The notes beneath the pieces were generated by a model. It was not told where the DNA came from and did no database searches. It saw only the letters and a list, made by a program, of their open reading frames with translations. From IMG/VR virus record IMGVR_UViG_3300042507_002672: DNA of 37,813 nucleotides; one strand, given 5' to 3'. Source of the DNA: a virus. The position numbers and the translations under genes are program-made. Numbering within the stretch: position 1 is the stretch's first letter; every line of letters starts with the position of its first letter. Of the stretch, positions 6,455 through 36,836 are shown one piece after another.

Positions 6455-7833
6455 AGTACTCAGATTTTCTGGCCGGCAAGGCAATTGTTGACCCCGACAC
6501 TGGAATAAAAAACCCCGTAGGCTTGTCTCCTCATTTGCGCGGGTTTCAGCGCGATATTACGAAGTGGGCACTACGTCGCGGCAGGGCTGCAATCTTTGCC
6601 GGCACGGGTCTTGGTAAGAGCTTCATGGAGTTGGAGTGGTGCAAGGCGGTCGCCGCCCACACTGGCAAGCCGTCACTGATCCTGACACCGCTCGCTGTCG
6701 CCGCTCAATTCGTGACAGAGGGCGAGAAGTGGGGAAACCCAGTAACGCACGCTCGCACTGGCGACGATATTCGTCCCGGCATTAACGTCACGAATTACGA
6801 AAAGCTTGAACACTTTGATATATCTCAATTCGGTGCCATCGTTCTGGATGAAAGCTCAATCCTTAAATCCTACGATGGCAAAACCCGTTCCCTTCTAATC
6901 AACACATGCAAGCAAGTTCCGTTCCGGCTGGCTGCGAGTGCAACCCCGGCGCCGAATGATTTTATGGAGCTTGGCAACCATGCCGAGTTCCTCGGTGTCA
7001 TGTCTTACACAGACATGCTCGCCACGTTCTTTATGCACGATTCGAGCGAGACGCAGACATGGCGCCTGCGTGGTCATGCCGAGCAACCGTTCTGGCGCTG
7101 GATGTGCTCATGGGCCGTAACCCTTCGTAAGCCTTCCGACCTTGGATATGAAAACGGAGGATACGACCTCCCGCCCCTAAACCAGATCGAACACCGCGTC
7201 GATGTTGCCTACGCCCCATCCCAGGATAGCGGGATGCTATTCCCGATGGAGGCACAGACCCTTTCAGAACGCCTCGGGGCGCGACGTGGGAGCATCAAGG
7301 AGCGCGTTGCTAAAGCCGCTGCTGTTACCCCATCCGACCGCCCGTTCGTGTGGTGGTGCAACCTCAATGCGGAAGCGGAGGCATTGTGCGCGGCTATTCC
7401 AGATGCCGTCGAAGTTCGTGGATCTGATAGCGAGCGCGAGAAGGAACGCAAACTAGCGGAGTTCGCAGCTGGAAAAATCCGCGTACTTGTGACGAAGCCT
7501 TCTATCTGCGGGTGGGGCCTAAACTGGCAGCATTGCGCCGACACTGGATTTGTCGGCCTCTCCGATAGCTTTGAGCAAGTCTATCAGGCCATCCGTCGTT
7601 TCTGGCGCTTTGGGCAAACCAATCAAGTCACGGCGCACTTCATTGCCGCCGAAACCGAGGGCGCGGTAGTCGCCAATATCCGCCGCAAAGAACAACAGGC
7701 CGATCACATGGTCAGTTCGATGATTGACCATATGCGGGATTTGAACAGCGCGGCCATCGCGGGGACGACGAGAGACAAGGCTTCATATTTTCCGACAACC
7801 AAAATGGGGATGCCACAATGGATCGCAGCGTAG
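6451..7833 (+). CDS. SNF2/DEAD-like superfamily 2 helicase
   Basis: Walker A AGTGLGKS, DExx-type VLDESS, SATPAPN (motif III), and C-terminal helicase-domain motifs (QAIRRFWRFGQ). Confidence 0.85.
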   Translation: MKYSDFLAGKAIVDPDTGIKNPVGLSPHLRGFQRDITKWALRRGRAAIFAGTGLGKSFMELEWCKAVAAHTGKPSLILTPLAVAAQFVTEGEKWGNPVTHARTGDDIRPGINVTNYEKLEHFDISQFGAIVLDESSILKSYDGKTRSLLINTCKQVPFRLAASATPAPNDFMELGNHAEFLGVMSYTDMLATFFMHDSSETQTWRLRGHAEQPFWRWMCSWAVTLRKPSDLGYENGGYDLPPLNQIEHRVDVAYAPSQDSGMLFPMEAQTLSERLGARRGSIKERVAKAAAVTPSDRPFVWWCNLNAEAEALCAAIPDAVEVRGSDSEREKERKLAEFAAGKIRVLVTKPSICGWGLNWQHCADTGFVGLSDSFEQVYQAIRRFWRFGQTNQVTAHFIAAETEGAVVANIRRKEQQADHMVSSMIDHMRDLNSAAIAGTTRDKASYFPTTKMGMPQWIAA

Positions 7834-8795
7834 AGACAATCGACCAAGTTATAACATCTGACTACGCCATTTACCTTGGCGACAGTTGCGAGCTTTTGCA
7901 GGGTATCCCGTCCGACAGCATCGGGTTCGGGATTCACTCTCCGCCGTTTGAGGGGCTGTATAAATTCAGCAATTCAGAACGCGACGTTTCAAACTCCGAA
8001 GGGCCGCAATTCTGGCAGCACTACGGGTTCATCATCTCTGAATTGCTCCGCGTGACAAAGCCGGGTCGCCTTCATTCGGTCCATTGCATGAACCTCCCCA
8101 CGTCGAAGATTAGGGACGGGTTCATTGGGATGCGTGACTTCCGCGGCGAAGTCGTGAGGGCTTACGAGGAAGCCGGCTGGCACATGCACTCGGAAGTGTG
8201 CATCTGGAAGGATCCCGTAGTCGCTCAGCAGCGCACAAAATCAATCCGGCTTTTGCACAAGCAAGTCGTAAAGGATTCGACGCTGTCAGGGCAGGGCCTT
8301 GCCGATTACATCGTGACGTTCCGCAAGCCAGGCGAGAACGCAGACCGTGTCTCGGGATGCTTCGACCAGTACATCGGGCCGGAAGATCAAGAACCCTCGA
8401 GGGCAAAGTACACATCCGAGATGGATGGCCGGAATTGGTACTCCATCGAAGTATGGCAGCGTTACGCATCTCCGGTCTGGATGGATATTCGCCAGGGCCG
8501 CGTTCTGCCGTTCCGGGGCGGTCGAGACGAAGATGATGAAGTCCACATCTCACCGCTGCAGCTCGATGTTATCGAGCGTTGCATCGACCTTTGGAGCAAC
8601 CCCGGCGATACCGTTATTACCCCGTTTATGGGTGTTGGTTCTGAGGTCTATTGCGCCGTTCAGATGGGCCGCAAGGGGCTTGGGATCGAACTGAAGCCAA
8701 GCTACTTCCGGCAAGCCGTCGAGAACGTAGCCAATGCCAGCGCGAGTAAAAACGATATGCCGTTGTTCGCGGTGATTAATGGGGGCGCGGCATGA
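7818..8795 (+). CDS. Beta-class exocyclic-amino DNA methyltransferase (N4-C or N6-A)
   Basis: Catalytic motif IV HSPPF lies near the N-terminus. The AdoMet motif I VITPFMGVGSE lies near the C-terminus. This IV-then-I order defines the beta class. Confidence 0.85.
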   Translation: MDRSVETIDQVITSDYAIYLGDSCELLQGIPSDSIGFGIHSPPFEGLYKFSNSERDVSNSEGPQFWQHYGFIISELLRVTKPGRLHSVHCMNLPTSKIRDGFIGMRDFRGEVVRAYEEAGWHMHSEVCIWKDPVVAQQRTKSIRLLHKQVVKDSTLSGQGLADYIVTFRKPGENADRVSGCFDQYIGPEDQEPSRAKYTSEMDGRNWYSIEVWQRYASPVWMDIRQGRVLPFRGGRDEDDEVHISPLQLDVIERCIDLWSNPGDTVITPFMGVGSEVYCAVQMGRKGLGIELKPSYFRQAVENVANASASKNDMPLFAVINGGAA

Positions 8796-10571: not shown

Positions 10572-10764
10572 GGACATTGCCGCGCAGATCGAGATTTACG
10601 CGCGGAAGATGGAATCATACCCAGCCGATATTGTGCGCTACGTGATTAAAACGCAGATTGACAACAGCCCGTGGTGGCCGGCATGGAACGAACTCAAGGA
10701 CAGGCTTGATTTGTTTCTGAGCGCCCGGAGCCGGAAGCTTATTGCGCTGACGACGCAGCCATGA
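10402..10764 (+). CDS. Hypothetical protein (start uncertain; frame open from 9991)
   Basis: The C-terminal part (ECRKLLAEMKYLTRQRAESTEDIAAQIEIYARKMESYPADIVRYVIKTQIDNSPWWPAWNELKDRL) looks genuinely coding. Its stop overlaps the next ATG (ATGA). Confidence 0.5.
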   Translation: MRQYLPEPTRPEPLPQDEHQKALAAVKATLSTVNGAECRKLLAEMKYLTRQRAESTEDIAAQIEIYARKMESYPADIVRYVIKTQIDNSPWWPAWNELKDRLDLFLSARSRKLIALTTQP

Positions 10765-11345
10765 TTTACACCGGATCAGGCGACCTACCCCGTCATCTTT
10801 ACGTCTACGTTGACCGCTCGTTTATTCGCCGCGACGGTACGGGATTTGAACCCGCTGTGTGGTTTGGCCTTACCGCAAAGTTTGGCGAGATGTGGGGCGC
10901 AAATTTGATGCTGGAATGTGGGGCGATCTACCGCAACGTTCCGTTGCACGCGCTGGCCTTTAGACCCAACCCGGACCCAGATTGGAGCGAACAAAGCGCC
11001 CAAGCTTGGGACTGCTACGGGGCTCAGTTCTCGGTGATCGAATACCGATATCTGACCAACGTACAGGCGGAAATCCGCAAGCCTGCAAAGCTGATGGGTT
11101 CGTACCTGTTCACGGCCATTCCGTTGTTTGACGGCTATACGCGCCACCCCGGCCAGTCGAAAGAGTTTGTGTTTCTTGAGCTTGAGAACGGGCGTTTGTC
11201 CTGTAAGTCCACGGACATGCTGATCTTCCACGACAAATCATTCTGCACGCCGTCGTGGCCGACCGATCTACGCCGGCAAGTGGACACCTACCATTGCGAA
11301 ATGTCGGCTGTAGCGGACATTGTTGGGAAAAGGATCGAAGGATGA
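10761..11345 (+). CDS. Hypothetical protein (194 aa)
   Basis: ORF track, with ATGA overlaps at both ends. Confidence 0.65.
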   Translation: MIYTGSGDLPRHLYVYVDRSFIRRDGTGFEPAVWFGLTAKFGEMWGANLMLECGAIYRNVPLHALAFRPNPDPDWSEQSAQAWDCYGAQFSVIEYRYLTNVQAEIRKPAKLMGSYLFTAIPLFDGYTRHPGQSKEFVFLELENGRLSCKSTDMLIFHDKSFCTPSWPTDLRRQVDTYHCEMSAVADIVGKRIEG

Positions 11346-11647
11346 CCAAGACAATCCCCGAAATAGACGATGAGATGGTTGAGCGTGCGTTTAGGTGGCT
11401 GAACGAAAACGCATGTTTTGGCGGTGAGCCGTTTTCGGAAAGCCGCCGTCAGGTTCGATGTGCATTGGAAGCCGCCCTTACAGAACCCGAGATAGAGGTG
11501 ACTGAGACCATGGCCGAAGCTGGTTGGAGCGCGTCTTGCGAGGGATACAACAGCGCCATCAAAAGGAATGCCGCCGTCTACCGCGCCATGGTTAAGGCCG
11601 CGCCTGGGGGTATTCCTCACGCCATTAACTCTGTAACGATAATATGA
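11342..11647 (+). CDS. Hypothetical protein (101 aa)
   Basis: Start at MTKTIPEID (ATGA overlap) within track ORF 11255..11647. Confidence 0.6.
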   Translation: MTKTIPEIDDEMVERAFRWLNENACFGGEPFSESRRQVRCALEAALTEPEIEVTETMAEAGWSASCEGYNSAIKRNAAVYRAMVKAAPGGIPHAINSVTII

Positions 11648-12390
11648 AAATAGGCTTCATCGGCTTATCAAAAATTGCTGCCGGTTATGAGGATCCCAAA
11701 GAAACGCATTTAGGGGCGATCCTGCGCGCCAATCCAAAAGCCAACCTCGTATGCTTTGACCCTGATAAAAACGCCCAGGTCGCCGCAAAACAAAGATTTG
11801 GGACCATCCACATCGCGGATGAATTAGACGCCTTGAAATGCGATGTGGTGCTTATATCTTCCCCGACGCAAACCCATTATCAGCACGTTACAAAAGCCCT
11901 CACACAACGGCACAAGCCCGTAGTGGTTTGCGAAAAGCCCCTGGCTCCCACATACGAGCAGGGCCGCGAGCTTGTGGAAAGGGCAGATCAATCCGGTCAA
12001 ACCCTAATCGTCAATTTTCAGCGCCGATGGCTTCCGGGTGTTTTGCAATGGTGCGCAGCTGCCAACCAAGGCCAATTCGGTAGACGAAGGGCGAGCGTGT
12101 TTTACGTTGGTCCCGAAACACGGGAAAGGTTTATCGCCTCGGCAAGCCACGCCTTGGACATTGCCGGGGCGTGTGGCGTGACGGCAGAGAATATCGACGT
12201 TTACCCGTATTTTGATTTTTCTGTCGAGGTTAGGTGCGAGCAAAGCAGCCTAACACTCCGCAAAATCGGGGACCTTGTGCCCGTTTGGGAAAATATCTTT
12301 AACCACATCGCCAAAGGAGATTCATTGCCGTGCCGCGCCGCAGACCATCTCCCCGGAATGAAACTCGTGGACGAACTGTGTCCAGCTTGA
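11644..12390 (+). CDS. Gfo/Idh/MocA-like NAD(P)-dependent oxidoreductase
   Basis: N-terminal Rossmann start MKIGFIGLSKIA. SSPTQTHYQHVTKAL...KPVVVCEKPLA contains the family-typical EKP motif. Confidence 0.7.
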   Translation: MKIGFIGLSKIAAGYEDPKETHLGAILRANPKANLVCFDPDKNAQVAAKQRFGTIHIADELDALKCDVVLISSPTQTHYQHVTKALTQRHKPVVVCEKPLAPTYEQGRELVERADQSGQTLIVNFQRRWLPGVLQWCAAANQGQFGRRRASVFYVGPETRERFIASASHALDIAGACGVTAENIDVYPYFDFSVEVRCEQSSLTLRKIGDLVPVWENIFNHIAKGDSLPCRAADHLPGMKLVDELCPA

Positions 12391-12489
12391 CCAAGAAAAC
12401 CGCAAAGAATGACGCCACAGCCAAGCGCACAGGCATGACCTGGAGCTTCCGGCAGAAAAAATACGTCACCCTCAGGGAATGGTGGGACC

Positions 12490-13110
12490 TTGGCTAAGAA
12501 ACTCAAAACCGTAGCACTTCTCGCCCGCAAGCCTGGATTGGAAATTCTTGACGCGCTTTTGTCGGATCCCCGGATCGATTTGAAAGTGGTCTACACTTAC
12601 AACCACCTTCCAAAATCTGAGAGCCCGAAGGAAAACAATTCCATCGGCTACACCGTAACGCAGCGCCCGGAATGGCCGGTGTTCAAGGAAAAGTGCGAAG
12701 CTGCCAGCGTGTTGATTTGGTCCGAGGTTGGATCAAACGGCTTTAATCCAACAAACGACCGCCATGCGCCCTATGATTTGCTTCTGTGCTGCAATTGGCG
12801 CCAGGTTGTGCCTGAATGGATACTCAGCGCCGCGCGCCACGCCATCAACATTCACCGTGGCGACCTTCCAAAATACCCCGGCAAGCGCCCTGTCCTTCAG
12901 GCCGTAGAGGTGGGGGAAGCGAGAGTAGCCATCACCGCGCACAAAATGACCGGGGTTATCGACGGAGGCCCAGTGATTGCAAAGGTTTACGCGGACGTTG
13001 TTAAGGCTTCGACGTTTGCGGAATCTGAAACGCTGACGCGAGACGCGCTTGTACCGTACTACGCGCCGTTAACGAGATTTATTGTAGATATTGCTTCCCG
13101 TGAAACCTAA
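12490..13110 (+). CDS. Formyltransferase-fold protein (PurN/Fmt N-domain/sugar N-formyltransferase-like)
   Basis: AINIHRGDLPKYPGKRPV matches the N.H...LP...G core. It is followed by HKMTGVIDGGPVIAK (D.G.I). The size (206 aa) fits single-domain formyltransferases. The start is TTG. Confidence 0.7.
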   Translation: MAKKLKTVALLARKPGLEILDALLSDPRIDLKVVYTYNHLPKSESPKENNSIGYTVTQRPEWPVFKEKCEAASVLIWSEVGSNGFNPTNDRHAPYDLLLCCNWRQVVPEWILSAARHAINIHRGDLPKYPGKRPVLQAVEVGEARVAITAHKMTGVIDGGPVIAKVYADVVKASTFAESETLTRDALVPYYAPLTRFIVDIASRET

Positions 13111-13841: not shown

Positions 13842-14102
13842 ATGGCAGCGCGTAAGACCAAGGGCACAAAAGACATACCGTGGCCCGAAGCTACGAGAGA
13901 GCGCATCCGCGCCAGTATGCTTGAAAAAGAGCTTATGAAACATGTACTTGGCCAGCGCGATATGACGCCAACGCAATTTGGCGCGGCTAAGGCGCTACTG
14001 AACAAGGTTCTCCCCGACCTGACAGAGAACGAAACGCGCATCTCGGGTGAAATAATTATCGAGCGCAGGTATTTTGGCTCAAAGAATCCAAATCCCAAAT
14101 AA
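13842..14102 (+). CDS. Candidate small terminase subunit (86 aa)
   Basis: Called from its position immediately upstream of, and overlapping, the large terminase gene. It is small and basic with an HTH-like middle. No diagnostic motif. Confidence 0.4.
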   Translation: MAARKTKGTKDIPWPEATRERIRASMLEKELMKHVLGQRDMTPTQFGAAKALLNKVLPDLTENETRISGEIIIERRYFGSKNPNPK

Positions 14103-15444
14103 GTGGGAACCGCGTGAGTACCAATTACCGCTGTGGTCTGCCCTTGAGGACGGCTGCAAGCGCGCCCTGTACACGTGGCATCGCCGCGCTGGCAAGGACG
14201 ACATAGGGCTTCACTTCACCGCGACCGAGGTGATCGAGAAGCCCGGCGTCTACTGGTACATGCTTCCCGAAGCCGCGCAGGCCCGTAAGGCGATCTGGAA
14301 GGCTATCGACCCCCACACTGGCCTGCGACGTATTGATTGGGCTTTCCCTCCCGAGATTCGGGCAAGTACCAACGACACGGAAATGTTCATCAACTTCAAG
14401 AGCGGCGCAACGTGGCAAGTCGTGGGCTCTGATAACTACAACAGCCTGGTGGGATCGCCTCCCCGCGGCGTGGTGTTCTCTGAGTGGGCCTTAGCCAATC
14501 CTGCGGCATGGGCCTACATCCGGCCTATCCTGAGAGAAAACGGCGGATGGGCGCTGTTCAACTTCACGCCCCGAGGTCGCAACCATGCCGTTACCATGTA
14601 CGAGGCGCACAAGGACGACCCCGACTGGTTCATTCAGAAGCTTACAGCCAAGCAAACCGGGGCCATGACCGACGAAGAATTGGCTAAGGAACTGCTGGAT
14701 TATCAATCTGACTTTGGCGAGGAAGATGGGGAATCGAAGTTCCGCCAGGAATACCTATGCGACTTCGACGCTCCTTTGGTCGGGGCTTACTACGCCAAGA
14801 TTATCAGCAAGCTCGAAGATGCCGGCCAAATCCGCGATGTGCCTTACGACAAGCACAAGCCCGTTTACACCGCCTGGGACATCGGCCGCACGGATGACGC
14901 CGCAGTGTGGTTCTACCAGATCATCAACCGCGAAATTCACGTCATTGACTACTTTGCCAAGCCGGGCGGGGACGTGCCCGAGTTCGCCGCCATGCTGCAA
15001 GAGAAGAAATACATCTACGGCAAGCACACGCTCCCCCATGACGGCCGGCATAAAACATTCGCGGCGCCGCGCTCTGTATTCGAGCAGCTCGGGGAGTTCG
15101 TGGGCTTGGCGTCGGTCGGCATCTGCCCCGACCATCATCGGATTGATGGTATCGCCGCGGTTCGTGCTATACTGCCGAGGTGCTGGTTTGACGCCAAGCG
15201 ATGCAAGCAAGGGCTAGAAGCCTTGCGGCAATACCAGCGGAAATGGGACGACGAACGTAAGGTGTTCTCTCCTGATCCGCTGCATAATTGGGCGTCTCAT
15301 GCGTCCGATGCCTTCCGCTATATGGCTGTGGCGTTCAAGGAAGAAAACCCGACTGCGTTTAAATCCTCCACGTTCCGCCAGCCCACGCTTAACGAAGCAT
15401 GGGAGAGGCAGGAGCGTTTCGGGCATGACGAGGCGCGGATATGA
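14074..15444 (+). CDS. terL: Terminase large subunit
   Basis: N-terminal ATPase region (WHRRAGKDD Walker-A-like). C-terminal RNaseH-like nuclease motifs (YTAWDIGRTDDAAVWFYQ, PHDG, ASDAFRY). The start is non-ATG (TTG) and approximate. Confidence 0.9.
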   Translation: MAQRIQIPNKWEPREYQLPLWSALEDGCKRALYTWHRRAGKDDIGLHFTATEVIEKPGVYWYMLPEAAQARKAIWKAIDPHTGLRRIDWAFPPEIRASTNDTEMFINFKSGATWQVVGSDNYNSLVGSPPRGVVFSEWALANPAAWAYIRPILRENGGWALFNFTPRGRNHAVTMYEAHKDDPDWFIQKLTAKQTGAMTDEELAKELLDYQSDFGEEDGESKFRQEYLCDFDAPLVGAYYAKIISKLEDAGQIRDVPYDKHKPVYTAWDIGRTDDAAVWFYQIINREIHVIDYFAKPGGDVPEFAAMLQEKKYIYGKHTLPHDGRHKTFAAPRSVFEQLGEFVGLASVGICPDHHRIDGIAAVRAILPRCWFDAKRCKQGLEALRQYQRKWDDERKVFSPDPLHNWASHASDAFRYMAVAFKEENPTAFKSSTFRQPTLNEAWERQERFGHDEARI

Positions 15445-19049: not shown

Positions 19050-20012
19050 ATGGCTTCTCCGAATACCTCATTTACGGAAATCGTCACTACGACGCTCCGT
19101 AACCGTTCCGGGGTCCTCGCGGACAACGTTTCGGAAAACAACGCGATCCTCCGTCGCCTGAACAAGAAGGGCAAGATCAAGACCGTCTCTGGCGGTCGCA
19201 CGATTGTTCAAGAACTCGAATACGACGAGAACGGGACATACACCCGTTACACCGGCTACGAGACGTTGGACATTTCGCCGTCTGACGTGTTCTCGGCTGC
19301 TGAGTTCAACTACAAACAAGCCGCGGTCGCAGTGACCATCTCCGGCTTGGAAGAACTTCAGAACTCCGGCCCGAACGCCATCATCGACCTCTTGGAAAGC
19401 CGGATCGGCAACGCCGAGCGGACGATGAAGAACAACATCTCTGCCGATATGTACTCGGACGGGACGGCTTCGGATTCCAAGCAGATCGGCGGTCTTCAGC
19501 TTCTCGTGGCTGACTCTCCGACCGCGGGCACTGTTGGCGGCATCGCTGCTTCCAATGCCTTTTGGCAGAACCGCCAGGCTGCGGCCGGTACGGCTGCCGC
19601 TGGTTCCATCGTTGGAGCCATGAACGATATGTACACCAATCTCGTTCGCGGCAACGACGCGCCCGACCTCATCATCGCTGATAACAACTTTTACAACCGT
19701 TATCTGCGTGAACTCCAGATCATCCAGCGCATCACTTCGGATGAGATGGCGCAGGCCGGCTTTACGGCGCTCAAGTACATGAACTCCGATCTTGTCCTCG
19801 ACGGCGGTGTCGGCGGCAACTGCCCCACCAATCACATGTACTTCCTCAACACGAACTACCTGTTCTGGCGCCCCCACGCGTCCAGAAACATGGTTCCGAT
19901 TGGGGATGAGCGCTTCTCCGTCAACCAGGACGCCATGGTCAAGCTGATCGGCTGGGCCGGCAACATGACTATTGCAAACCGACGCCTTCAGGGCGTCCTC
20001 ACCGCAGCTTAA
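19050..20012 (+). CDS. Major capsid protein (320 aa)
   Basis: Called from its position after the scaffold gene, its size, and an N-terminus (TSFTEIVTTTLRNRSG..ADNVS.NNAILRRL) resembling capsid proteins of BPP-1-like podoviruses. This is recognition from memory, not a search. Confidence 0.8.
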   Translation: MASPNTSFTEIVTTTLRNRSGVLADNVSENNAILRRLNKKGKIKTVSGGRTIVQELEYDENGTYTRYTGYETLDISPSDVFSAAEFNYKQAAVAVTISGLEELQNSGPNAIIDLLESRIGNAERTMKNNISADMYSDGTASDSKQIGGLQLLVADSPTAGTVGGIAASNAFWQNRQAAAGTAAAGSIVGAMNDMYTNLVRGNDAPDLIIADNNFYNRYLRELQIIQRITSDEMAQAGFTALKYMNSDLVLDGGVGGNCPTNHMYFLNTNYLFWRPHASRNMVPIGDERFSVNQDAMVKLIGWAGNMTIANRRLQGVLTAA

Positions 20013-20024
20013 GGAGCAACAGTC

Positions 20025-20357
20025 ATGGGTAACATCTACACGAACGACAGCACGCTTGGGGTCGCGTTTGACCGCAAGACCACTTCGCCCGAACACAAGG
20101 TCGGGACGGTGGTTAAGCTCCTGAGCAACTATCCGACCGTGCAGGGCAAGTTCGCCATGTACGTCAAAGCGGCCGGCGTCATCGGCAATTCGACCTACGC
20201 CACGGTGGCCCTCGCGTCCATCTCGTGCCTTGCCACATCGGTTGATGGTGGTGCGGGTACGGCGTTCTTCCGCAACGGATCGGTGGCCTTTGCCGCTGAC
20301 GAGTACGGTTGGCTGATGTGCGTTAAGACTGCGATCCCGCAGGGCACGAACACCTAA
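20025..20357 (+). CDS. Head decoration/cement protein (candidate, 110 aa)
   Basis: A small ORF immediately after the capsid gene and followed by a hairpin. Positional inference only. Confidence 0.5.
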   Translation: MGNIYTNDSTLGVAFDRKTTSPEHKVGTVVKLLSNYPTVQGKFAMYVKAAGVIGNSTYATVALASISCLATSVDGGAGTAFFRNGSVAFAADEYGWLMCVKTAIPQGTNT

Positions 20358-20365
20358 CGAAGGGA

Positions 20366-20389
20366 GGGGCCGGGTTAAAATCCGGCCCC
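20366..20389 (+). terminator. GC-rich hairpin after the capsid/decoration genes
   Basis: ggggccgg (20366-20373) pairs with ccggcccc (20382-20389) across an 8-nt loop. There is no clear T-run, so it may be an attenuator or an RNA-stability element. Confidence 0.35.
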
Positions 20390-20396
20390 GATCTCC

Positions 20397-21437
20397 TTGG
20401 ATTTATCAAATCATCCTCTCGGCAATTTGGGCGACGGCTTCCGCATTAAGGAAACGTTTGACCCGATCACGACGAGCTCCGTTGCGTTCTCAACGGTCCC
20501 CGCATTTATACAAATCGGGCCTGCCGCGCCGCAGTTCAGACCTTTGCGGGATGCCATACCGTACACAAAGGGTCGGTTGGAGGCGTGGAAGCTTGTCGAG
20601 CATGTACGCTCGGCCAAGGCGAAAAACTGGCCTGGGATCAAGCCTAGTGAGTTTTTAGGCCAGTCCATTGCTATCTGTGGCGGCGGGCCGTCGCTGGCGT
20701 CCCTTGAGCAATTAAAAGAACTGCGCGCCCTTCAAAAGAAGGGAACAAAGGTTCTTGCGATCAACCGCACGCATGATTTTTTGCTGACCAAGGGCGTTGT
20801 CCCGTGGGCTGGGATTTTGCTTGATCCCGTTCCCGCGGTCGCAAGCTACATCACACCGCGCCGCGGTATCCGGTATTACGTCGGCTCTCAGTGTCATCCG
20901 AGCACGTTTGACAACTTCGACAAGCCCGATGTGCAGAAATACATCTGGCACGCTGCCTCCGTTCCTGAGATGGACGCCGAACTTACTGCGCGCGAGATGG
21001 TTTTACGCGTTCCGGCGAACGGTTCTACGTGCGGGCTTCGCTCGATCCTCAAGTCTTATATCGAGGGATTCCGCGAGATTCATCTGTTCGGCTTTGATAG
21101 CTGCATGGAGCAGAACGCGGACGGGACGCTCAAGATCAACGACGGCAAGCCAAACCTTCACGCCTACCCCAAACCCGAGGCCATCCTTGACGTGAAGGAA
21201 ATGCTGGTCCCGATGGATGACGGGGACCGCACGTACTACGGCAACACGATGATGTTTTCGCAGGCTGACGAGTTCCAACAGTTTCTTTTAGCCCGCGATC
21301 AAGGCCTGCAAAACGGGATGCTGGAGCCCCATACGATAACTGTCCACGGGTCCGGTTTAATCCCTGATATCGCCCGCTTCTATGGGCTCCATTCCGACCA
21401 ACTGAAGGTGAAACATGGCAAGCGGCTACACGCGTGA
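20397..21437 (+). CDS. DUF115 (MptE/Maf-like) protein
   Basis: IAICGGGPSLASL...KVLAINRTHDFLLTKGVVPWAGILLDP...NGSTCGLRSILKSYIEGFREIHLFGFDSC matches the GxGPSL ... D ... G.D core of DUF115/motility-accessory-factor proteins. The start is TTG. Confidence 0.65.
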   Translation: MDLSNHPLGNLGDGFRIKETFDPITTSSVAFSTVPAFIQIGPAAPQFRPLRDAIPYTKGRLEAWKLVEHVRSAKAKNWPGIKPSEFLGQSIAICGGGPSLASLEQLKELRALQKKGTKVLAINRTHDFLLTKGVVPWAGILLDPVPAVASYITPRRGIRYYVGSQCHPSTFDNFDKPDVQKYIWHAASVPEMDAELTAREMVLRVPANGSTCGLRSILKSYIEGFREIHLFGFDSCMEQNADGTLKINDGKPNLHAYPKPEAILDVKEMLVPMDDGDRTYYGNTMMFSQADEFQQFLLARDQGLQNGMLEPHTITVHGSGLIPDIARFYGLHSDQLKVKHGKRLHA

Positions 21438-22020
21438 TTTCGACGCTAAATTCGATCAAAGCTCGGGACGTTTCGAGGATGAATCCAAGGAGCGCGCAAA
21501 GGTGCGTTTCTGGATTGATGAAATCCTGAATCCCAAGACCAACAATCTTGACAAGATCGAGATGATCGAAATCCGCGTCCCCGGCGAAGACAAGAACATC
21601 TGGGCGGGCAAGGTCGAGGAAAAGCACCGCCAGCGTTTTGGCCGTGCGTACCAGTATTTCAAAGCCGGTCAGGAAATGCCCATCAATGGGTATCCGCTTA
21701 ACAAGCTGCCCGGCATCACGGCGCAGATGCTGACGGACCTACGCTATATGGGCTTTGCATCGGTCGAGGACCTTTCGCGCGCGACGGATCAGGCCATTGG
21801 GCAAATCCACGCCGGTCTTACGTGGCGCCGCAAGGCTCAACTCTGGCTTGATGAGCAAAAGGCCATCGAATCCAAAGCCAATAGTTCTGCGGAAAAGGAC
21901 GCCATCATTGCCGAACAGGGCGAAGCCTTGAAGGCACTTCAGGATCAGATGGCCGAGCTTATTGCGAACTTGCCCAAGAAACCCGGCCCTAAGCCGAAGT
22001 CTGAACAGGCCGCTGCCTAA
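21415..22020 (+). CDS. Hypothetical virion-module protein (201 aa)
   Basis: ORF track. It has an HhH-like segment (ITAQMLTDLRYMGFASVEDLSRATDQAI) and a taatg overlap downstream. Confidence 0.6.
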   Translation: MASGYTRDFDAKFDQSSGRFEDESKERAKVRFWIDEILNPKTNNLDKIEMIEIRVPGEDKNIWAGKVEEKHRQRFGRAYQYFKAGQEMPINGYPLNKLPGITAQMLTDLRYMGFASVEDLSRATDQAIGQIHAGLTWRRKAQLWLDEQKAIESKANSSAEKDAIIAEQGEALKALQDQMAELIANLPKKPGPKPKSEQAAA

Positions 22021-22730
22021 TGTCTCTCCTCACGCTGATCCAAGACGCGTCCAAGATGATCGGGCTTTCGAGCCCGACCGCCGTAGTTACGTCTGCGGAC
22101 CAGCGTGTGCTTGAGCTTCTCGTTATGGCCAACGTGGTTGGGGAGGACTTGTCCACCCGCTACGAATGGCAGGAGCTTGTAAGAACGGCTCAATGGTCAA
22201 GCTCTGGCACTATTGCCCAAGGCACGATCAATAGTTCTACGATTGCGTCTGACTTTGGCCGCTTCATTGATGGCACGTTTTGGGATCGGTCGCTTCGGCA
22301 ACAGGTTCTAGGCCCTTCGACGGCGCAGCAATGGCAGGCTGACCTTTCCAACGCGATTGTCTCACCGCCTTACAAATTCATCGTCCAGAACAATATCCTC
22401 TACATCGGCCCCACTCCGATTGGCTCTGGGAATACGCTTGTTTTTAACTACGTCACAAAGAATTGGTGTCAGTCGGCCGCGGGGACGGGGCAATCAGCCT
22501 TCGCCGCGGATACCGATACGACGCTTATCCCAGAGCGCCTATTTAAGCTCGATCTCATATGGCGTTGGAAGTCCTCAAAGGGATTGGCCTATGCCGAGGA
22601 CCTTGAGAACGCAGAGCGCGAGATTGACAAGCATATCGGCCAGAACGGCGGCCGGCGCGTGCTGTTTATCGGCGGGGCTCCGATTGAGTACCTGTCAGGA
22701 AACGTAGCCGCGGGGAATTGGCCCGGATGA
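22020..22730 (+). CDS. Putative head-tail adaptor / tail tubular A-like structural protein
   Basis: Called from position and size (236 aa) before a larger tail gene. No diagnostic motif. Confidence 0.5.
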   Translation: MSLLTLIQDASKMIGLSSPTAVVTSADQRVLELLVMANVVGEDLSTRYEWQELVRTAQWSSSGTIAQGTINSSTIASDFGRFIDGTFWDRSLRQQVLGPSTAQQWQADLSNAIVSPPYKFIVQNNILYIGPTPIGSGNTLVFNYVTKNWCQSAAGTGQSAFAADTDTTLIPERLFKLDLIWRWKSSKGLAYAEDLENAEREIDKHIGQNGGRRVLFIGGAPIEYLSGNVAAGNWPG

Positions 22731-24286
22731 GGAAGGCATTAAGACCAACGCCCGCCACATCCGAGGCATCACTTCCAATCAATATCCCGGCTCCGGTTGG
22801 GGGCTTAAACACGCGCGACGGGCGGGCGGTTATGCCCATCACCGATGCTGAGTTGATGGACAACTGGTTCCCCGAGGCGACAGACGTTCGCGTTCGTCCG
22901 GGCTCTGACACCTATTGTTCCGGCATCGGCGCCCAGGTTGAAAGCATCATGTCCTATTCGGGCGGGGCAACGCTGAAGCTGCTTATCGCTGCGGGCGGGA
23001 CGATCCAGAACATATCGACCGTAGGCGTCACGGGGACGATTGCAGCCAGTTCAACCATTGCCAACGGGTTCAATAACGACCGCTGGCAGTATCGGAACTT
23101 TGGCACTCCTGGAGGCACATTCCTTGTCGCGGTGAACGGCGAAGACGCGCGCCAGATTTATAACGGCACGGTCATGTGGGCCGGATCGGCGTCTGCCGGC
23201 TCGGGTACGGCTGCGGTCTTCTCGAATATCGAGATTTTTCAGCGGCGCATCTACTACACCCAGACCAATTCGCTAGAGTTTCTCTACCACGACCAAGTAT
23301 CAGCCATAGGCGGGACAATTAGCGGATTTAACCTCGCGCCATTGTTAAGCCGTGGTGGATCTCTTACCGCTATCGGAACATGGACCCGCGACGGCGGTTC
23401 GGGGATGGATGACTTAATATCCTTCCTCTCATCCGAGGGGGAAATCATCGTCTATCAGGGGCTTGATCCGGCAGACGCCAATTCGTGGTCAATGGTTGGG
23501 GTCTATAAGATTGCTCGCCCTGTTGGACCCCGAGCGATGCAAAAGCTCGGTGGTGAGCTTCTAATTGACACGGTGCAGGGCGTTTATTCGCTCTCTGCGG
23601 TTATGTCAGGCCTCAAACAGCAGGCCCCATTCTCCGACAAGATCAACACGGCTCTAAGCGCGGCGTGGGGTGTCTACAAGAACAACTTTGGCTGGGAGAT
23701 GAAATACGACCCAGACCGTGAATGGCTGATACTGAATGTCCCTGTCGCGTCGGGGAACTTACAGCAGCAATACGTCATGAACACTCACACTCAAGCCTGG
23801 ACGCGCTTCCTGGGCTGGGATGCGAACTGTTTCGAGTTCCACAACGGGAATCTGTATTTTGGGACAAATGGGTCTGTAGTCCAAGCCGCGACAAGTTCAC
23901 AGTCCGATGATGGCGAGGATATCCTTGTTGACGTTCGACAGGCCGCGTCAACCTTCGGCGCTCCCGGCAGGCTTAAGCACTTCAAGATTTACCGCCCTCT
24001 GATTAACTCAGACGGGGCGCTTGGCCTCGCGTTCGCTATGGACGTGGATTTCAACGATCAAACGCCAACCAACATCCCGACAGTGGTGGCTGTCCCCTTT
24101 GCTGAGTGGGACGTGGCTACGTGGGACGATTTCTTCTGGGGTGGCGATCCGGTCCCCGTGGGCCAGTGGCAATCAGCCGGCGCATTGGGGACTTACGGGT
24201 CTGTACGTATCAAGGGCGCTGCCAATGAAACGGCCATTCGCTGGTACGGAACGGATGTAGTGTTAGAACCCGGAGGTATGGTATAA
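22727..24286 (+). CDS. Putative tail tubular B/nozzle-like structural protein
   Basis: ATG at 22727 (ATGA overlap). The call rests on size (about 520 aa) and position in a podovirus-like tail module. Confidence 0.5.
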   Translation: MRKALRPTPATSEASLPINIPAPVGGLNTRDGRAVMPITDAELMDNWFPEATDVRVRPGSDTYCSGIGAQVESIMSYSGGATLKLLIAAGGTIQNISTVGVTGTIAASSTIANGFNNDRWQYRNFGTPGGTFLVAVNGEDARQIYNGTVMWAGSASAGSGTAAVFSNIEIFQRRIYYTQTNSLEFLYHDQVSAIGGTISGFNLAPLLSRGGSLTAIGTWTRDGGSGMDDLISFLSSEGEIIVYQGLDPADANSWSMVGVYKIARPVGPRAMQKLGGELLIDTVQGVYSLSAVMSGLKQQAPFSDKINTALSAAWGVYKNNFGWEMKYDPDREWLILNVPVASGNLQQQYVMNTHTQAWTRFLGWDANCFEFHNGNLYFGTNGSVVQAATSSQSDDGEDILVDVRQAASTFGAPGRLKHFKIYRPLINSDGALGLAFAMDVDFNDQTPTNIPTVVAVPFAEWDVATWDDFFWGGDPVPVGQWQSAGALGTYGSVRIKGAANETAIRWYGTDVVLEPGGMV

Positions 24287-24723
24287 TGCTTTCCGTCGCC
24301 ACTCCCGACGACCTTGAAGAGGTTTTTAACCTTCTCCTGGTCATGCACGCCGAAAACGGCGTCGGTCGATTGGATGAACCCAAGGCCCGCGGGGCTATCT
24401 CCGAAATCATCAATTCTGGCGGCTGCTTAATTTCAAAGCAGAACGGCAAGATTGTTGGAAGTGTTGGTCTCACCATGACGAGCTGGTGGTATTCGCGGGA
24501 TCGGTTTCTTGTGGACGAGTGGTTCTTTGTCCACCCCGACAACCGGAGCGAAGGCCATGCGACCCAGCTTATTGGATGGATGAAAACTGCGGCTCAGACG
24601 TGCGGGACTCCGGTTGTTCTCAGCGTGGGGACTACGGTGGACGCTCTGTCCAAGCTTAAATACTTCCGCAAGCATCTGACCCCGTTCGGCGGCGCCTTCA
24701 TTTACCAGCCCAAGGCGGCTTAA
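24286..24723 (+). CDS. GNAT-family N-acetyltransferase-like protein (145 aa)
   Basis: KIVGSVGL...DEWFFVHPDNRSEGHATQLIGWMKTAA resembles GNAT motif A (V.P..R..G....L). It has a taatg overlap with the upstream tail gene. Confidence 0.6.
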   Translation: MLSVATPDDLEEVFNLLLVMHAENGVGRLDEPKARGAISEIINSGGCLISKQNGKIVGSVGLTMTSWWYSRDRFLVDEWFFVHPDNRSEGHATQLIGWMKTAAQTCGTPVVLSVGTTVDALSKLKYFRKHLTPFGGAFIYQPKAA

Positions 24724-35429: not shown

Positions 35430-36836
35430 TCATGCTGCGGGCCTTTCGATCTGATCCACCATTGTGATGCGCCGGCCAATCCAGGCCATCACGGGCACGG
35501 CCATTGAGTTCCCCAGCGCCTTGTAGCGAGGGCCATCAGCGGCCATGCCGTTGCGGTAAGGAATCAAAGTATAATCGTCAGGAAATCCCTGTAATCTTTC
35601 GCACTCCCGCGGTGTAAGGCGGCGCACGGCGGCTGATGTGGAAAGCATGGGCGTATTGCGCCCGCTTGCGTTGCTGTTCGTGTTCAAAGTGTTAAACACG
35701 TCCCCCGCGCGCACCTCGCCTGTCTGGTTTTGAGCAAAGGCCACGGCTTGCTGAATGCAGTCGCCCCCTTGTTGGTTGCCCCCGACAGGGCCACCCGCCA
35801 TGACAGGCTGCGCTACGTCCACGGCGCGTGCCTTGTAATCACGGCTCGAGTTCTGCGGCATGATCGACCACGCGACGTAGGTTTGCTCGACTTGGTTGCC
35901 GCCAGAGTTGGCGCCGAGGCTGTTCGACACTGCGACCTGGCGGATCTGCATTGCCATAGGACTGGCCCCGTTTACACCTGACCCAGCCGTCCCGATTGTC
36001 GCTGCAACCTCGCCAGTTATGATTCCGTTATAGCAGTCAACGCCAATCGTGACAGGCACAAGCGGCGTTCCCCGTCCCGTCCCATTTTCACTCGCGTCAA
36101 AGCCATCAGCGCGCAGGGAGTGGGTAACGAACGTCTCACTTTCACCGTCAATGCGACCGACGCCGCCCTTGGCGTTTAAAGCCCTAGCGATTAGATGACC
36201 GGCCTGAGCTTGGTTATCGTCCGCGCCGCATGTTCCAACGCCGTTTGCAGTGAGCGCGGCAACTCCCGGCCCCGCTTGGCGGCGCGGCGCAGTATCCCCG
36301 CGCAGGCTTTCGCGCTCAAAAAGAACCGCTGCGGCACGTCGCCAGTCTCCAAGGTGTCCGACAACGAACACACGGCGGCGGCGCTGGGCCACTCCGAAGT
36401 ACTGAGCGTCAAGCACTCGATAGGCGAACCCATACCCGAGTTCTGCCAAGCCCCCGAGGATGGAACCAAAGTCCCGTCCTCCGTTCGATGACAGTACACC
36501 GGGGACGTTCTCCCAAACCACCCATCGGGCGCGTGAGCGGCGAGCAAGTTGAAGAAACGCGAGGGCCAGGTTGCCACGCGCGTCGCCCAAGCCGCCCCGC
36601 AATCCTGCGATCGAAAAGCTCTGGCAGGGGGTTCCGCCGACAAGAAGGTCAATTGGTTCATATTCGCCCTCGCGAATGGTGGTGAAGTCCCCATGCAACG
36701 GCACATCGGGATAGTGGTGCGCGAGGACCGCCCGCGGGAATTTGTCGATCTCGGAATAGAAGGCCGGCCGCCAGCCGAGCGGATGCCATGCGACCGTGGC
36801 CGCTTCGATGCCGGAACAGACTGAGCCGTACCGCAT
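35430..36836 (-). CDS. dcm: DNA (cytosine-5) methyltransferase with a long variable region
   Basis: Motif I-like SVCSGIEA, motif IV GGTPCQSFS, motif VI WENVPG, motif VIII QRRRRVFVVG, motif IX RRLTPRECERLQGFPDDYT and motif X GNSMAVPVM. About 240 aa lie between motifs VIII and IX. Confidence 0.9.
   Translation of the reverse strand: MRYGSVCSGIEAATVAWHPLGWRPAFYSEIDKFPRAVLAHHYPDVPLHGDFTTIREGEYEPIDLLVGGTPCQSFSIAGLRGGLGDARGNLALAFLQLARRSRARWVVWENVPGVLSSNGGRDFGSILGGLAELGYGFAYRVLDAQYFGVAQRRRRVFVVGHLGDWRRAAAVLFERESLRGDTAPRRQAGPGVAALTANGVGTCGADDNQAQAGHLIARALNAKGGVGRIDGESETFVTHSLRADGFDASENGTGRGTPLVPVTIGVDCYNGIITGEVAATIGTAGSGVNGASPMAMQIRQVAVSNSLGANSGGNQVEQTYVAWSIMPQNSSRDYKARAVDVAQPVMAGGPVGGNQQGGDCIQQAVAFAQNQTGEVRAGDVFNTLNTNSNASGRNTPMLSTSAAVRRLTPRECERLQGFPDDYTLIPYRNGMAADGPRYKALGNSMAVPVMAWIGRRITMVDQIERPAA

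What the first reader, a model, noticed from the sequence alone, without database searches (positions are those of the whole stretch)
20397..21437. DUF115 / Maf-like putative glycosyltransferase inserted between the capsid-decoration genes and the tail genes
Seen: the 346-aa product carries GGGPSL, AIN....L...G..P....LLDP and G.T.G....I.LFGFD. This is the conserved core of DUF115 (the MptE-like fold). It follows the hairpin that closes the capsid and decoration genes, and it overlaps the next structural gene by 23 nt, so it is expressed with the virion genes.

Established knowledge: the best-studied bacterial DUF115 proteins are the motility accessory factors, which transfer nonulosonic acids (pseudaminic or legionaminic acid) onto flagellin Ser/Thr. 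Virion glycosylation by phage-encoded glycosyltransferases located next to capsid genes has been described for some actinophages.

Inference: this may be a virion-protein glycosyltransferase acting on the capsid, decoration protein or tail fibre. The capsid and fibre proteins are Ser/Thr-rich. It could use a host nonulosonic-acid donor that is possibly remodelled by the phage oxidoreductase, formyltransferase and GNAT. I am not aware of a characterised Maf-like enzyme in a phage head module.
Basis: partly seen in the sequence, partly recalled or inferred. Interest (0 to 1): 0.65.

Follow-up and report, generated by a model that had tools for sequence, protein, structure and literature searches.

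The report
Maf-like sugar transferase beside capsid genes
A phage of the Mx8 type carries, right after its capsid genes, a well-conserved enzyme related to the bacterial proteins that attach sialic-acid-like sugars to flagella; relatives fuse it to other sugar-building enzymes, so it most likely decorates the virus particle with sugars, which has not been shown for this kind of phage.

Summary
ORF 20397-21437 (+, 346 aa, TTG start) passes Pfam PF01973 (DUF115/MptE-like; 41 bits, cut-off 34.6). A confident AlphaFold model matches Maf glycosyltransferase 5mu5 best, then archaeal HPPK (MptE). The three Maf positions shown by mutagenesis to be essential align with D143, S210/T211 and D234, all conserved.

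The gene fills a cargo slot between the Mx8p49-like and Mx8p50-like genes of an Mx8-like podophage head module. That slot is empty in Mx8 and Bradyrhizobium phage ppBjS10J-1. The stand-alone gene marks one monophyletic capsid clade and is under purifying selection (dN/dS 0.06-0.14).

In other clades the same slot holds fusions of a GT8-like glycosyltransferase, DUF115 and a methyltransferase. This favours a glycosylation enzyme over a pterin pyrophosphokinase.

Most likely it is a late-expressed, Maf-like transferase of a host-made CMP-activated ulosonic acid onto a virion protein. Neither donor nor acceptor has been shown.

The proposed partnership with the phage GNAT, oxidoreductase and formyltransferase is not supported.

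The family is large (1,128 clusters at E<=1e-30), known only from metagenomes, and absent from cultured phages.

The parts
20397..21437 (+). DUF115 (extended Maf-like) enzyme gene, 346 aa. The catalytic unit spans roughly aa 45-335. Key residues: GGGPS 95-99, N123, D143, W184-H185, S210/T211, D234-S235, H255-A-Y257, M286/Q289/F293, H317-G-x-G320.
20366..20389 (+). Conserved GC-rich stem-loop (9 bp) between the stop of the p49-like gene and the DUF115 start codon. It has no U-tract. It is flanked by an AGGGAGG SD-like sequence (20361-20367) that can pair with the CU-rich stretch beside the TTG. Likely an attenuator, mRNA-end or translation-damping element that separates the abundant capsid genes from the enzyme.
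19050..20012 (+). Major capsid protein (phrog_9953; 49-58% identical to the Mx8 and ppBjS10J-1 MCPs). Candidate acceptor.
20025..20357 (+). 110-aa short homologue of the Mx8p49 virion structural protein (shared (E/Q)YGW motif; 19% Ser+Thr). Upstream border of the cargo slot and a candidate acceptor.
21415..22020 (+). 201-aa homologue of Mx8p50. Downstream border of the cargo slot; overlaps DUF115 by 23 nt.
22020..22730 (+). SU10-type adaptor / tail protein (phrog_6013), used as the downstream anchor for measuring the slot.

Best explanation
The gene encodes a soluble, late-expressed glycosyltransferase of the Maf / sialyltransferase-like branch of the DUF115 fold. It is transcribed with the head genes, at a lower level than the capsid genes because of the conserved stem-loop just upstream. 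It binds a cytidine-nucleotide-activated ulosonic acid that the host supplies; the phage encodes no such pathway. CMP-Kdo is the candidate available in any Gram-negative host, and CMP-Pse or CMP-Leg are candidates in hosts that make them. It transfers that sugar to Ser/Thr of a virion protein before or during head assembly. The capsid protein and the Mx8p49-like protein encoded immediately upstream are the prime candidate acceptors. In sister clades the same slot carries GT8-like - DUF115 - methyltransferase fusions that would build a longer, methylated glycan.

Shown here: fold, family, conserved catalytic positions, slot, synteny, selection and domain fusions.

Inferred: glycosyltransferase activity (about 0.7), a virion protein as acceptor (about 0.5), and an ulosonic acid as donor (about 0.4).
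For: Family and fold: PF01973 above cut-off. The closest solved relative by profile and by fold (271 aligned columns) is Maf 5mu5. GT29 sialyltransferases also appear in the fold search.

Catalytic residues: MmMaf E324 and D415, and the Ser mutated in CbMaf and GkMaf, align with D143, D234 and S210/T211. Across 47 distinct phage DUF115 domains these are conserved 46/47, 47/47 and 44/47.

Fusions: in the same post-capsid slot of related phages, DUF115 is fused in either order to a domain whose AF2 model (pLDDT 96) matches glycogenin, LgtC, GlyE and GT6 and which has an invariant DxD. It is also fused to FkbM, Methyltransf_24 or class-I methyltransferases and to a TIGR04396 'surface carbohydrate biosynthesis' domain. 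PseD (Maf-type) is the only NCBIfam hit to the DUF115 domains.

Head-module association: the position between the p49-like and p50-like genes is conserved from 98% down to 27% identity. A DUF115-methyltransferase also sits next to the portal in an SU10-like phage.

Expression: contiguous operon, overlapping stop and start, no promoter-like site, native composition.

Selection: dN/dS 0.06-0.14.

Precedents: actinophage capsid and tail-tube glycosylation by phage glycosyltransferases (PMC11256854, PMC12619734, PMC12363180, all citing Freeman et al. 2023). PBCV-1 A064R is a GT-GT-methyltransferase for capsid glycans (PMC7826918). Maf enzymes accept CMP-Neu5Ac and CMP-Kdo (bioRxiv 10.1101/2020.06.03.131540).
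Against: No biochemical or mass-spectrometric data exist.

The conserved acidic, Ser and GGGPS positions have counterparts in MptE pyrophosphokinase in the partial alignment, so they do not by themselves exclude a phosphotransfer reaction. MptE is the second-best fold match.

The window protein lacks the N- and C-terminal domains of Maf. It gets no NCBIfam hit.

No nucleotide-sugar or nonulosonic-acid biosynthesis gene was found in the window or in neighbouring genes of relatives. The host is unknown.

No acceptor-specific signal was found. S/T enrichment is modest. The slot is empty in about two thirds of related capsid loci, so the modification is dispensable.

The location argues only indirectly for a virion acceptor.
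Confidence: 0.5

Rival explanations
1. The enzyme is a glycosyltransferase that acts on a host glycoconjugate, not on the virion. Candidates are the LPS/LOS core, O-antigen or capsule precursors, or flagellin. The function would be lysogenic conversion or superinfection exclusion, with the gene acting as a 'moron' lodged in the late operon.
For: Bacterial GT8 enzymes such as LgtC, which is among the fold matches of the fused partner domain, modify LOS/LPS (established knowledge, not tested here). Cst-II-type sialyltransferases, to which the Maf central domain is structurally related, sialylate LOS (established knowledge). Maf enzymes act on flagellin. The lineage includes temperate phages such as Mx8 and prophage-derived UViGs. 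The gene is accessory and is gained and lost repeatedly. Stand-alone paralogues also occur outside the head module, in the pre-packaging slot (L021, L022, L024, L025).
Against: The gene has no promoter-like site or terminator of its own. It starts 7 nt after a hairpin and overlaps the next structural gene. Its composition is identical to the neighbouring genes. The position next to the capsid genes is conserved over very deep divergence and in a second podophage lineage. All UViGs whose identifiers look like isolate-genome ids have the empty slot.
Confidence: 0.15
2. The protein is not a glycosyltransferase. It is an MptE- or ThiN-like nucleotide-dependent pyrophosphokinase or kinase acting on a small molecule, for example a pterin, cofactor or sugar, or on a protein.
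For: The Pfam family is named for MptE. MjHPPK is the second-best fold match (E 1.7e-6, TM 0.57 on the target). Thiamin pyrophosphokinase and SteA also appear. The GGGPS and acidic motifs have MptE counterparts. One distant relative is fused to a CTP-dependent kinase-like domain.
Against: The profile E-value to MptE is only 0.023, against 1e-6 for Maf. The alignment to Maf covers 271 columns, including part of the region beyond the Pfam domain. There are repeated fusions to a bona fide GT-A glycosyltransferase and to sugar-type methyltransferases, and none to folate or pterin enzymes. There is no folate-pathway context. The conserved extension of about 100 aa (LHAYxKPE, NxxMxxQ, HGxGxxP) lies outside the 171-position Pfam model and cannot fit within the 215-241-aa MptE chains.
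Confidence: 0.12
3. The enzyme glycosylates phage DNA (hypermodified bases) and not protein.
For: Phage glycosyltransferases commonly modify DNA (reviewed in PMC12619734). The window encodes two DNA methyltransferases.
Against: The window has no hydroxymethylase (thymidylate-synthase-like) or other base-hypermodification gene; all ORFs of 200 aa or more were assigned. The gene sits in the head module, not the replication module. Its closest characterised relatives act on proteins.
Confidence: 0.03

Closest known systems
Maf (motility accessory factor) flagellin nonulosonic-acid glycosyltransferases: M. magneticum Maf (PDB 5mu5), C. botulinum CbMaf, G. kaustophilus GkMaf, Campylobacter PseD/PseE
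   Same: Same Pfam domain (PF01973). Best profile and fold match. The GxGPS motif and the three mutagenesis-tested positions are conserved. Soluble cytoplasmic enzyme that would act on a folded or assembling structural protein before export or assembly.
   Different: About half the size (346 aa against roughly 600-670 aa). It lacks the Maf N-terminal Rossmann-like domain and C-terminal helical domain, and has its own conserved C-terminal extension of about 100 aa. It is encoded in a phage head operon, not a flagellar glycosylation island. There are no adjacent nonulosonic-acid biosynthesis genes. The acceptor cannot be assumed to be flagellin. The NCBIfam PseD model does not hit the window protein.
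MptE (archaeal 6-hydroxymethyl-7,8-dihydropterin pyrophosphokinase; PDB 8sd5)
   Same: Same Pfam family and core fold. It has a GxGPS-type motif and acidic positions that align with those of the phage family in the partial alignment.
   Different: Weak profile similarity (E 0.023). MptE is a single-domain protein of 215-241 aa. From established knowledge (not tested here) it works in archaeal folate/methanopterin synthesis. The phage family has an extra conserved C-terminal region and is fused to glycosyltransferase and methyltransferase domains, not to pterin enzymes.
Actinobacteriophage virion glycosylation (Che8, Corndog, Myrna; Freeman et al. 2023, as cited in PMC11256854, PMC12619734 and PMC12363180)
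   Same: Phage-encoded glycosyltransferases modify the phage's own capsid and tail proteins. The genes are accessory and variably present.
   Different: The enzymes there are not reported as DUF115/Maf-type; I could not read the primary paper. The hosts are Actinobacteria and the phages are siphophages or myophages. Here the setting is an Mx8-like podophage lineage whose cultured members infect Gram-negative bacteria, and nothing has been shown experimentally.
Chlorovirus PBCV-1 A064R (GT - GT - methyltransferase enzyme that builds capsid-protein glycans; PMC7826918)
   Same: The fusion-type relatives (GT8-like - DUF115 - FkbM or Methyltransf_24) have the same logic: two transferase domains plus a methyltransferase in one virus-encoded polypeptide, linked to the capsid protein.
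   Different: A064R is from a eukaryotic giant virus, makes N-linked glycans, has rhamnosyltransferase domains, and shows no detected homology. The window phage has only the single DUF115 unit.
GT42 / GT29 sialyltransferases (Cst-II, ST3Gal, ST8Sia)
   Same: Maf's central domain is reported to resemble Cst-II in the donor-binding region. GT29 enzymes appear as weak fold matches. The donors are CMP-activated.
   Different: The structural scores are weak (E 2e-3 to 2e-2, TM about 0.3). There is no sequence similarity. Their acceptors are glycans.

Membership tests
Pfam PF01973 (DUF115 / MptE-like / Maf_flag10) | Profile HMM score at or above the curated gathering cut-off (34.6 bits) | tested here: met
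   41.0 bits, E 2.2e-10, aa 86-239 matching profile positions 22-170 of 171. All close homologues carry the same precomputed domain.
Pfam PF01973 (DUF115 / MptE-like / Maf_flag10) | DUF115 core fold | tested here: met
   AF2 model with pLDDT 89.7. The top Foldseek hits are the solved DUF115 proteins found here, 5mu5 and 8sd5.
Maf flagellin nonulosonic-acid glycosyltransferases | Catalytic positions shown by mutagenesis (MmMaf E324 and D415; CbMaf D272/S334/D357; GkMaf D285/S356/N379) | tested here: met
   They align with D143, D234 and S210/T211. Conserved in 46/47, 47/47 and 44/47 phage DUF115 domains. These positions have counterparts in MptE, so they are necessary but not discriminating.
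Maf flagellin nonulosonic-acid glycosyltransferases | Three-domain architecture of about 600-670 aa: N-terminal Rossmann-like domain, central Maf_flag10 domain, C-terminal helical domain | tested here: not met
   346 aa. Only about 85 aa precede the core, and about 100 aa of a different conserved extension follow it.
Maf flagellin nonulosonic-acid glycosyltransferases | Match to a curated Maf-type model (NCBIfam NF050051, PseD) | tested here: not met
   No NCBIfam hit for the window protein at E<=0.01. Fusion-type relatives hit PseD at E 1.8e-11 to 2e-4, far below the whole-protein cut-off.
Maf flagellin nonulosonic-acid glycosyltransferases | Genomic context: flagellin genes and Pse/Leg/Neu biosynthesis genes | tested here: not met
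   The context is a phage head operon. No NeuB/PseI-, NeuA/PseF- or flagellin-like genes occur in the window or in neighbouring genes of relatives.
Maf flagellin nonulosonic-acid glycosyltransferases | Transfer of a CMP-activated nonulosonic or ulosonic acid to protein Ser/Thr | not testable with these tools
   Requires an enzyme assay or glycoproteomics.
MptE (archaeal HPPK) | Close sequence relationship to characterised MptE, and a single-domain size of about 215-240 aa | tested here: not met
   The profile hit to 8sd5 is only E 0.023 over 50 residues. The protein is 346 aa with a conserved extension. The fusions are to glycosyltransferases and methyltransferases.
MptE (archaeal HPPK) | ATP-dependent pyrophosphoryl transfer to 6-hydroxymethyl-dihydropterin | not testable with these tools
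   Requires an enzyme assay.
Phage virion-glycosylation systems | Phage-encoded glycosyltransferase co-expressed with virion genes | tested here: inconclusive
   Co-expression is inferred from operon structure. Glycosyltransferase activity is inferred from homology and domain fusions.
Phage virion-glycosylation systems | Glycan covalently attached to capsid or tail proteins | not testable with these tools
   Requires intact-mass or glycopeptide MS of virions. No cultured phage carries the gene.

The most novel reading that the evidence does not exclude
A very large, so far uncharacterised and almost purely metagenomic family of 'extended DUF115' enzymes is the catalytic core of a modular capsid-glycosylation cassette of tailed phages. 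The cassette occurs as DUF115 alone, GT8-like-DUF115, GT8-like-DUF115-methyltransferase, or with a doubled DUF115, and sits in the head module of Mx8-like and SU10-like podophages. It would put ulosonic-acid-containing (Kdo/Pse/Leg-type), sometimes methylated, O-glycans on virions of phages infecting Gram-negative bacteria. That would be the first such system outside actinophages and the first non-flagellar substrate class for Maf-type enzymes.
Probability: 0.4. Interest if true: 0.8.

Novelty: new variant of a known kind. Interest (0 to 1): 0.66.

Why it matters
Virion glycosylation by phage-encoded enzymes has been shown only for actinophages, where it shields particles from antibodies.

If Mx8-like podophages decorate their heads with acidic ulosonic sugars using a Maf-type enzyme, three things follow:
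- Phage glycobiology would extend to phages of Gram-negative hosts.
- Maf/DUF115 enzymes would gain a new class of acceptors.
- More than a thousand unannotated metagenomic protein clusters, now labelled 'MptE-like' or hypothetical, would gain a function.

It would also provide small (346 aa), soluble, stand-alone protein O-ulosonyl transferases for glyco-engineering.

The presence/absence polymorphism on closely related capsids (26 of 72 scorable loci carry DUF115) gives a natural experiment for asking what a capsid glycan is good for: stability, adhesion to mucus or particles, or evasion of grazers or immune recognition.

Tried and rejected
1. Single-sequence search of the PDB, PHROGs and NCBIfam gave nothing for the window protein. 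Only Pfam, the family profile and the fold search were informative.

2. tblastn against 50,697 cultured or deposited phage genomes, using the window protein and a fusion-type DUF115 domain, gave no match. There is therefore no isolate to point to.

3. Scan of one genome per bacterial and archaeal species gave only four distant hits, on short MAG contigs. No host could be identified, so the suggested check of host Pse/Leg capacity could not be done. No tRNA genes were found.

4. I tested whether window g194 is the GT8-like partner domain. It is not (hhalign probability 0.5%). No GT8-like domain occurs anywhere in the window.

5. I tested whether a Ser/Thr-rich protein of about 121 aa seen next to fusion-type genes is DUF115-specific. 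It also occurs in DUF115-less loci, so I rejected it as a dedicated acceptor.

6. I looked for DUF115-specific Ser/Thr features in the capsid proteins. Enrichment is only modest and there are no tracts. I did not pursue this further because of phylogenetic confounding.

7. The literature hits for 'DUF115 + phage' in defence papers were prefix artefacts for DUF1156.

8. The Freeman et al. 2023 primary paper is not held. The precedent is cited through papers that describe it.

9. The first attempt to scan genome contigs with the 54-sequence alignment failed because no block was conserved enough. I repeated it with a closer alignment.
Full report
**The observation**

The window carries an ORF at 20397-21437 on the + strand. 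It is 346 aa with a TTG start and a TGA stop. Its N-terminus (MDLSNHPLG...) lines up with homologues that begin with ATG at the same place, so the TTG start is credible.

Their spacing was written in abbreviated form.

Pfam PF01973 (DUF115 / MptE-like) scores 41.0 bits against a gathering cut-off of 34.6. PHROGs, NCBIfam and a single-sequence PDB search found nothing.

A profile built from 54 family members finds the Maf glycosyltransferase of Magnetospirillum (5mu5) at E 1e-6 and archaeal HPPK/MptE (8sd5) only at E 0.023. An AlphaFold2 model built on that alignment is confident (pLDDT 89.7, pTM 0.88). Foldseek ranks 5mu5 first (E 1.6e-7, 271 aligned columns). Next come 8sd5, SteA, GT29 sialyltransferases and thiamin pyrophosphokinase.

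The gene is functional and long resident. dN/dS against relatives is 0.06-0.14. Its GC, GC3 and codon usage are those of its neighbours.

**Where it sits**

The window is an Mx8-like podophage genome. Its identified genes are ERF, YqaJ, a helicase, two DNA methyltransferases and DUF1376, followed by TerL, portal, scaffold, MCP, an SU10-type adaptor, a protein of about 520 aa at the nozzle position, a GNAT, and further virion proteins.

The nearest cultured capsids are Bradyrhizobium phage ppBjS10J-1 (58% identity), Mx8 and Mx9 (49%), Stenotrophomonas BUCT555, and more distantly the Brucella Tb group.

From TerL to the tail genes everything is on one strand with overlapping or abutting genes. 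No promoter-like site lies near the gene.

The 110-aa gene upstream is a short homologue of the Mx8 virion structural protein p49. The 201-aa gene downstream is a homologue of Mx8p50. In Mx8 and ppBjS10J-1 these two genes are adjacent. The DUF115 gene therefore really is an insertion into a slot of the head module.

**The upstream hairpin**

Between the p49-like stop and the DUF115 start lies a 9-bp GC-rich stem-loop (20366-20389, MFE -29 kcal/mol). It is conserved in position. Across seven relatives 98.4% of cells pair and five of nine pairs show compensatory double changes. No shuffle out of 500 reaches the observed score, and the slid-register controls collapse.

It has no U-tract, so it is not a canonical terminator. 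An AGGGAGG SD-like sequence on its 5' side can pair with the CU-rich stretch next to the start codon.

I read it as an element that sets the enzyme's expression below that of the capsid genes. That reading is inference.

**How the gene is distributed**

The large protein database returns 105 relatives, all from metagenomes. About 60 are full length, at 33-98% identity.

On long contigs the order is always: portal, a gene of unknown function, scaffold, MCP, p49-like, DUF115, p50-like, adaptor, nozzle-position protein, GNAT.

I anchored a separate search on the capsid protein, not on DUF115, which gave 78 new loci. Of the 72 that can be scored, 26 carry DUF115 in this slot. The remainder have an MCP-to-adaptor distance of 1.15-1.75 kb as in Mx8, or a somewhat longer one explained by longer or duplicated p49-like genes and a backbone protein of about 121 aa.

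On a capsid tree the stand-alone 346-aa type marks one monophyletic clade that includes the window. It is inherited vertically down to 63% MCP identity. The other DUF115-bearing loci are scattered among empty-slot clades, and deep branches (L010, L030, L032) also carry DUF115. The cassette is therefore old, accessory, and repeatedly gained or lost.

A few stand-alone paralogues (31-37% identity) sit instead in the slot just before the packaging genes (L021, L022, L024, L025). A DUF115-methyltransferase sits right after the portal gene of an SU10-like podophage.

An exhaustive profile search finds 3,839 clusters at 50% identity with E<=1e-3 and 1,128 with E<=1e-30. They match profile positions of about 45-335. 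The functional unit is thus an 'extended DUF115' of about 280 aa.

No cultured phage in INPHARED has a tblastn-detectable member. No isolate genome was found either.

**What the fusions say**

In the non-window clades the slot holds multi-domain proteins of 450-920 aa.

The commonest partner is a domain of about 200 aa with the motifs CxTDD, GWWxK, YxDLD, GDQxW and FHGxPKP. It can be N- or C-terminal to DUF115. It also exists as a stand-alone family of more than 500 proteins. Its AlphaFold model (pLDDT 96) matches glycogenin and other GT8, GT6, LgtC, GlyE and LARGE1 structures, with 215 PDB hits at E<=1e-3. It is a retaining GT-A glycosyltransferase with an invariant DxD.

The next commonest partners are methyltransferases of the FkbM (PF05050), Methyltransf_24 (PF13578) or class-I kinds. 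Some proteins have two DUF115 domains (L067, L110). L023 has two DUF115 genes with an Acetyltransf_3 GNAT between them.

More distant members are fused to a TIGR04396 'surface carbohydrate biosynthesis protein' domain or to a CTP-dependent-kinase-like domain. The only NCBIfam model hit by the DUF115 domains is PseD, a Maf-type flagellin modification protein, though below its whole-protein cut-off.

No fusion to a pterin or folate enzyme was seen.

GT - GT - methyltransferase in one viral polypeptide is the architecture of chlorovirus A064R, which builds the capsid glycan of PBCV-1 (PMC7826918).

**Catalytic positions**

Sulzenbacher et al. showed that E324 and D415 of M. magneticum Maf are essential. 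Khairnar et al. showed the same for the equivalent residues, and for a conserved Ser 23 residues before the second acid, in CbMaf and GkMaf (bioRxiv 10.1101/2020.06.03.131540).

In the profile alignment these map to D143 (LLDP), D234 (FGFDS) and S210/T211 (GSTCG). Over 47 distinct phage DUF115 domains they are conserved 46/47 (D or E), 47/47 and 44/47 (T or S) (printed numbering plus 3).

In the partial alignment, MptE has counterparts of these motifs. They therefore fit Maf-like catalysis without excluding phosphotransfer.

Beyond the Pfam domain the family has its own conserved positions: W184-H185, H255-A-Y257, M286/Q289/F293 and H317-G-x-G320. Their role is unknown. By analogy with sialyltransferases, a catalytic His and phosphate-binding Tyr or His are plausible. 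That is conjecture.

**Mechanism proposed**

Shown:
- A DUF115-fold enzyme, nearer to Maf than to MptE.
- Conserved under purifying selection.
- Co-transcribed with head genes in a conserved slot.
- Fused in relatives to glycan-building domains.

Inferred:
- It is a glycosyltransferase (about 0.7).
- Because every characterised glycosyltransferase with this fold uses a CMP-activated nonulosonic or ulosonic acid, and Maf enzymes also accept CMP-Neu5Ac and CMP-Kdo, the donor is probably a host-made CMP-ulosonic acid (about 0.4). CMP-Kdo is the one available in any Gram-negative host.
- Because of the position and expression, the acceptor is probably a virion protein (about 0.5). The first candidates are the MCP and the p49-like protein.

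Rivals:
- Action on host LPS, capsule or flagellin as a conversion gene (0.15).
- An MptE-like pyrophosphokinase or kinase (0.12).
- DNA glycosylation (0.03). No base-hypermodification genes are present.

The GNAT at 24286-24723 is a backbone gene of the whole lineage. It is present in Mx8 (p53) and ppBjS10J-1, which lack DUF115.

The GFO/IDH/MocA oxidoreductase (11644-12390) and the formyltransferase (12490-13110) are absent from DUF115-bearing relatives L001, L003 and L004. The formyltransferase is closest to PurN, Fmt and PurU.

These genes are therefore not obligate partners of DUF115. One weak link remains: they occupy the pre-packaging cargo slot where other phages, including L022 with a 96% identical ERF, carry a DUF115 paralogue.

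Ser/Thr richness of the capsid proteins is modest.

**Comparison and novelty**

The protein is a member of PF01973. It works most like Maf but fails Maf membership on three counts: architecture, curated-model score and genomic context. It is not MptE.

Virion glycosylation by phage-encoded enzymes is known in actinophages (cited in PMC11256854, PMC12619734, PMC12363180). I found no report of a DUF115/Maf-type enzyme in a phage head module in the held literature.

I rate it a new variant of a known kind. It is real and widespread and can be tested directly, but its chemistry and acceptor are unproven.

**Limits**

- There is no host, no isolate, and no experimental data.
- I could not inspect structure coordinates, so I could not map pockets.
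- The DUF115-anchored loci bias raw counts. For that reason the frequency given (26 of 72) comes only from the capsid-anchored set, which still contains near-duplicates.

Noticed in passing
window 14074-15444; loci L014 2275-3570 and L019 71-1366: Two contigs are 99-100% identical to the window in the formyltransferase, portal, scaffold, MCP and p49-like genes, yet their large terminase is only 43-44% identical. This is a clean terminase-module replacement between otherwise near-identical phages.
   Followed up: no
window 24286-24723: A GNAT acetyltransferase gene directly after the ~520-aa nozzle-position gene is conserved across the whole Mx8-like lineage (Mx8p53, ppBjS10J-1, L001, L003, L111), whether or not DUF115 is present. 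Its role inside the tail/ejection module is unexplained.
   Followed up: partly
window 10761-13110: A cargo cluster of g194 (phrog_3704, 'ferredoxin' AMG), a short GFO/IDH/MocA oxidoreductase and a PurN/Fmt-like formyltransferase sits between the replication and packaging genes. In L021, L022, L024 and L025 a stand-alone DUF115 paralogue (31-37% identity) sits in this same pre-packaging region.
   Followed up: partly
window 20359-20399: An AGGGAGG Shine-Dalgarno-like sequence lies 5' of the conserved hairpin, about 30 nt from the TTG start, and can pair with the CU-rich stretch next to the start codon. This could damp translation, or the hairpin could bring the SD and the start codon together. 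It is untested.
   Followed up: partly
L023 8445-10912: A divergent Mx8-like contig has two separate DUF115 genes after the capsid gene, with an Acetyltransf_3 (RimJ/PseH-type) GNAT between them.
   Followed up: no
L113 6916-8340, L114 2597-4021: A DUF115 - class-I methyltransferase fusion lies immediately after the portal gene of an SU10-like podophage from sewage. The link between DUF115 and head modules is therefore not confined to Mx8-like phages.
   Followed up: no
window 22718-24286: The ~520-aa protein after the adaptor matches phrog_5107 and Mx8p52, both labelled 'amidase' (lysis). It has no Pfam amidase domain and sits at the nozzle position of the tail module, so the label looks like a legacy misannotation.
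   Followed up: no
L026 10692-11057, L027 11355-11723, L030 11278-11643 and many L04x-L10x loci: A Ser/Thr-rich protein of about 121 aa (19-22% S+T) occurs between the p50-like gene and the adaptor in many relatives, with or without DUF115. My gene map shows no such gene in the window.
   Followed up: partly
window 7818-8795 and 35430-36836: The phage encodes two DNA methyltransferases, an N6/N4 type and a 468-aa C5-cytosine type on the minus strand. This suggests anti-restriction methylation.
   Followed up: no
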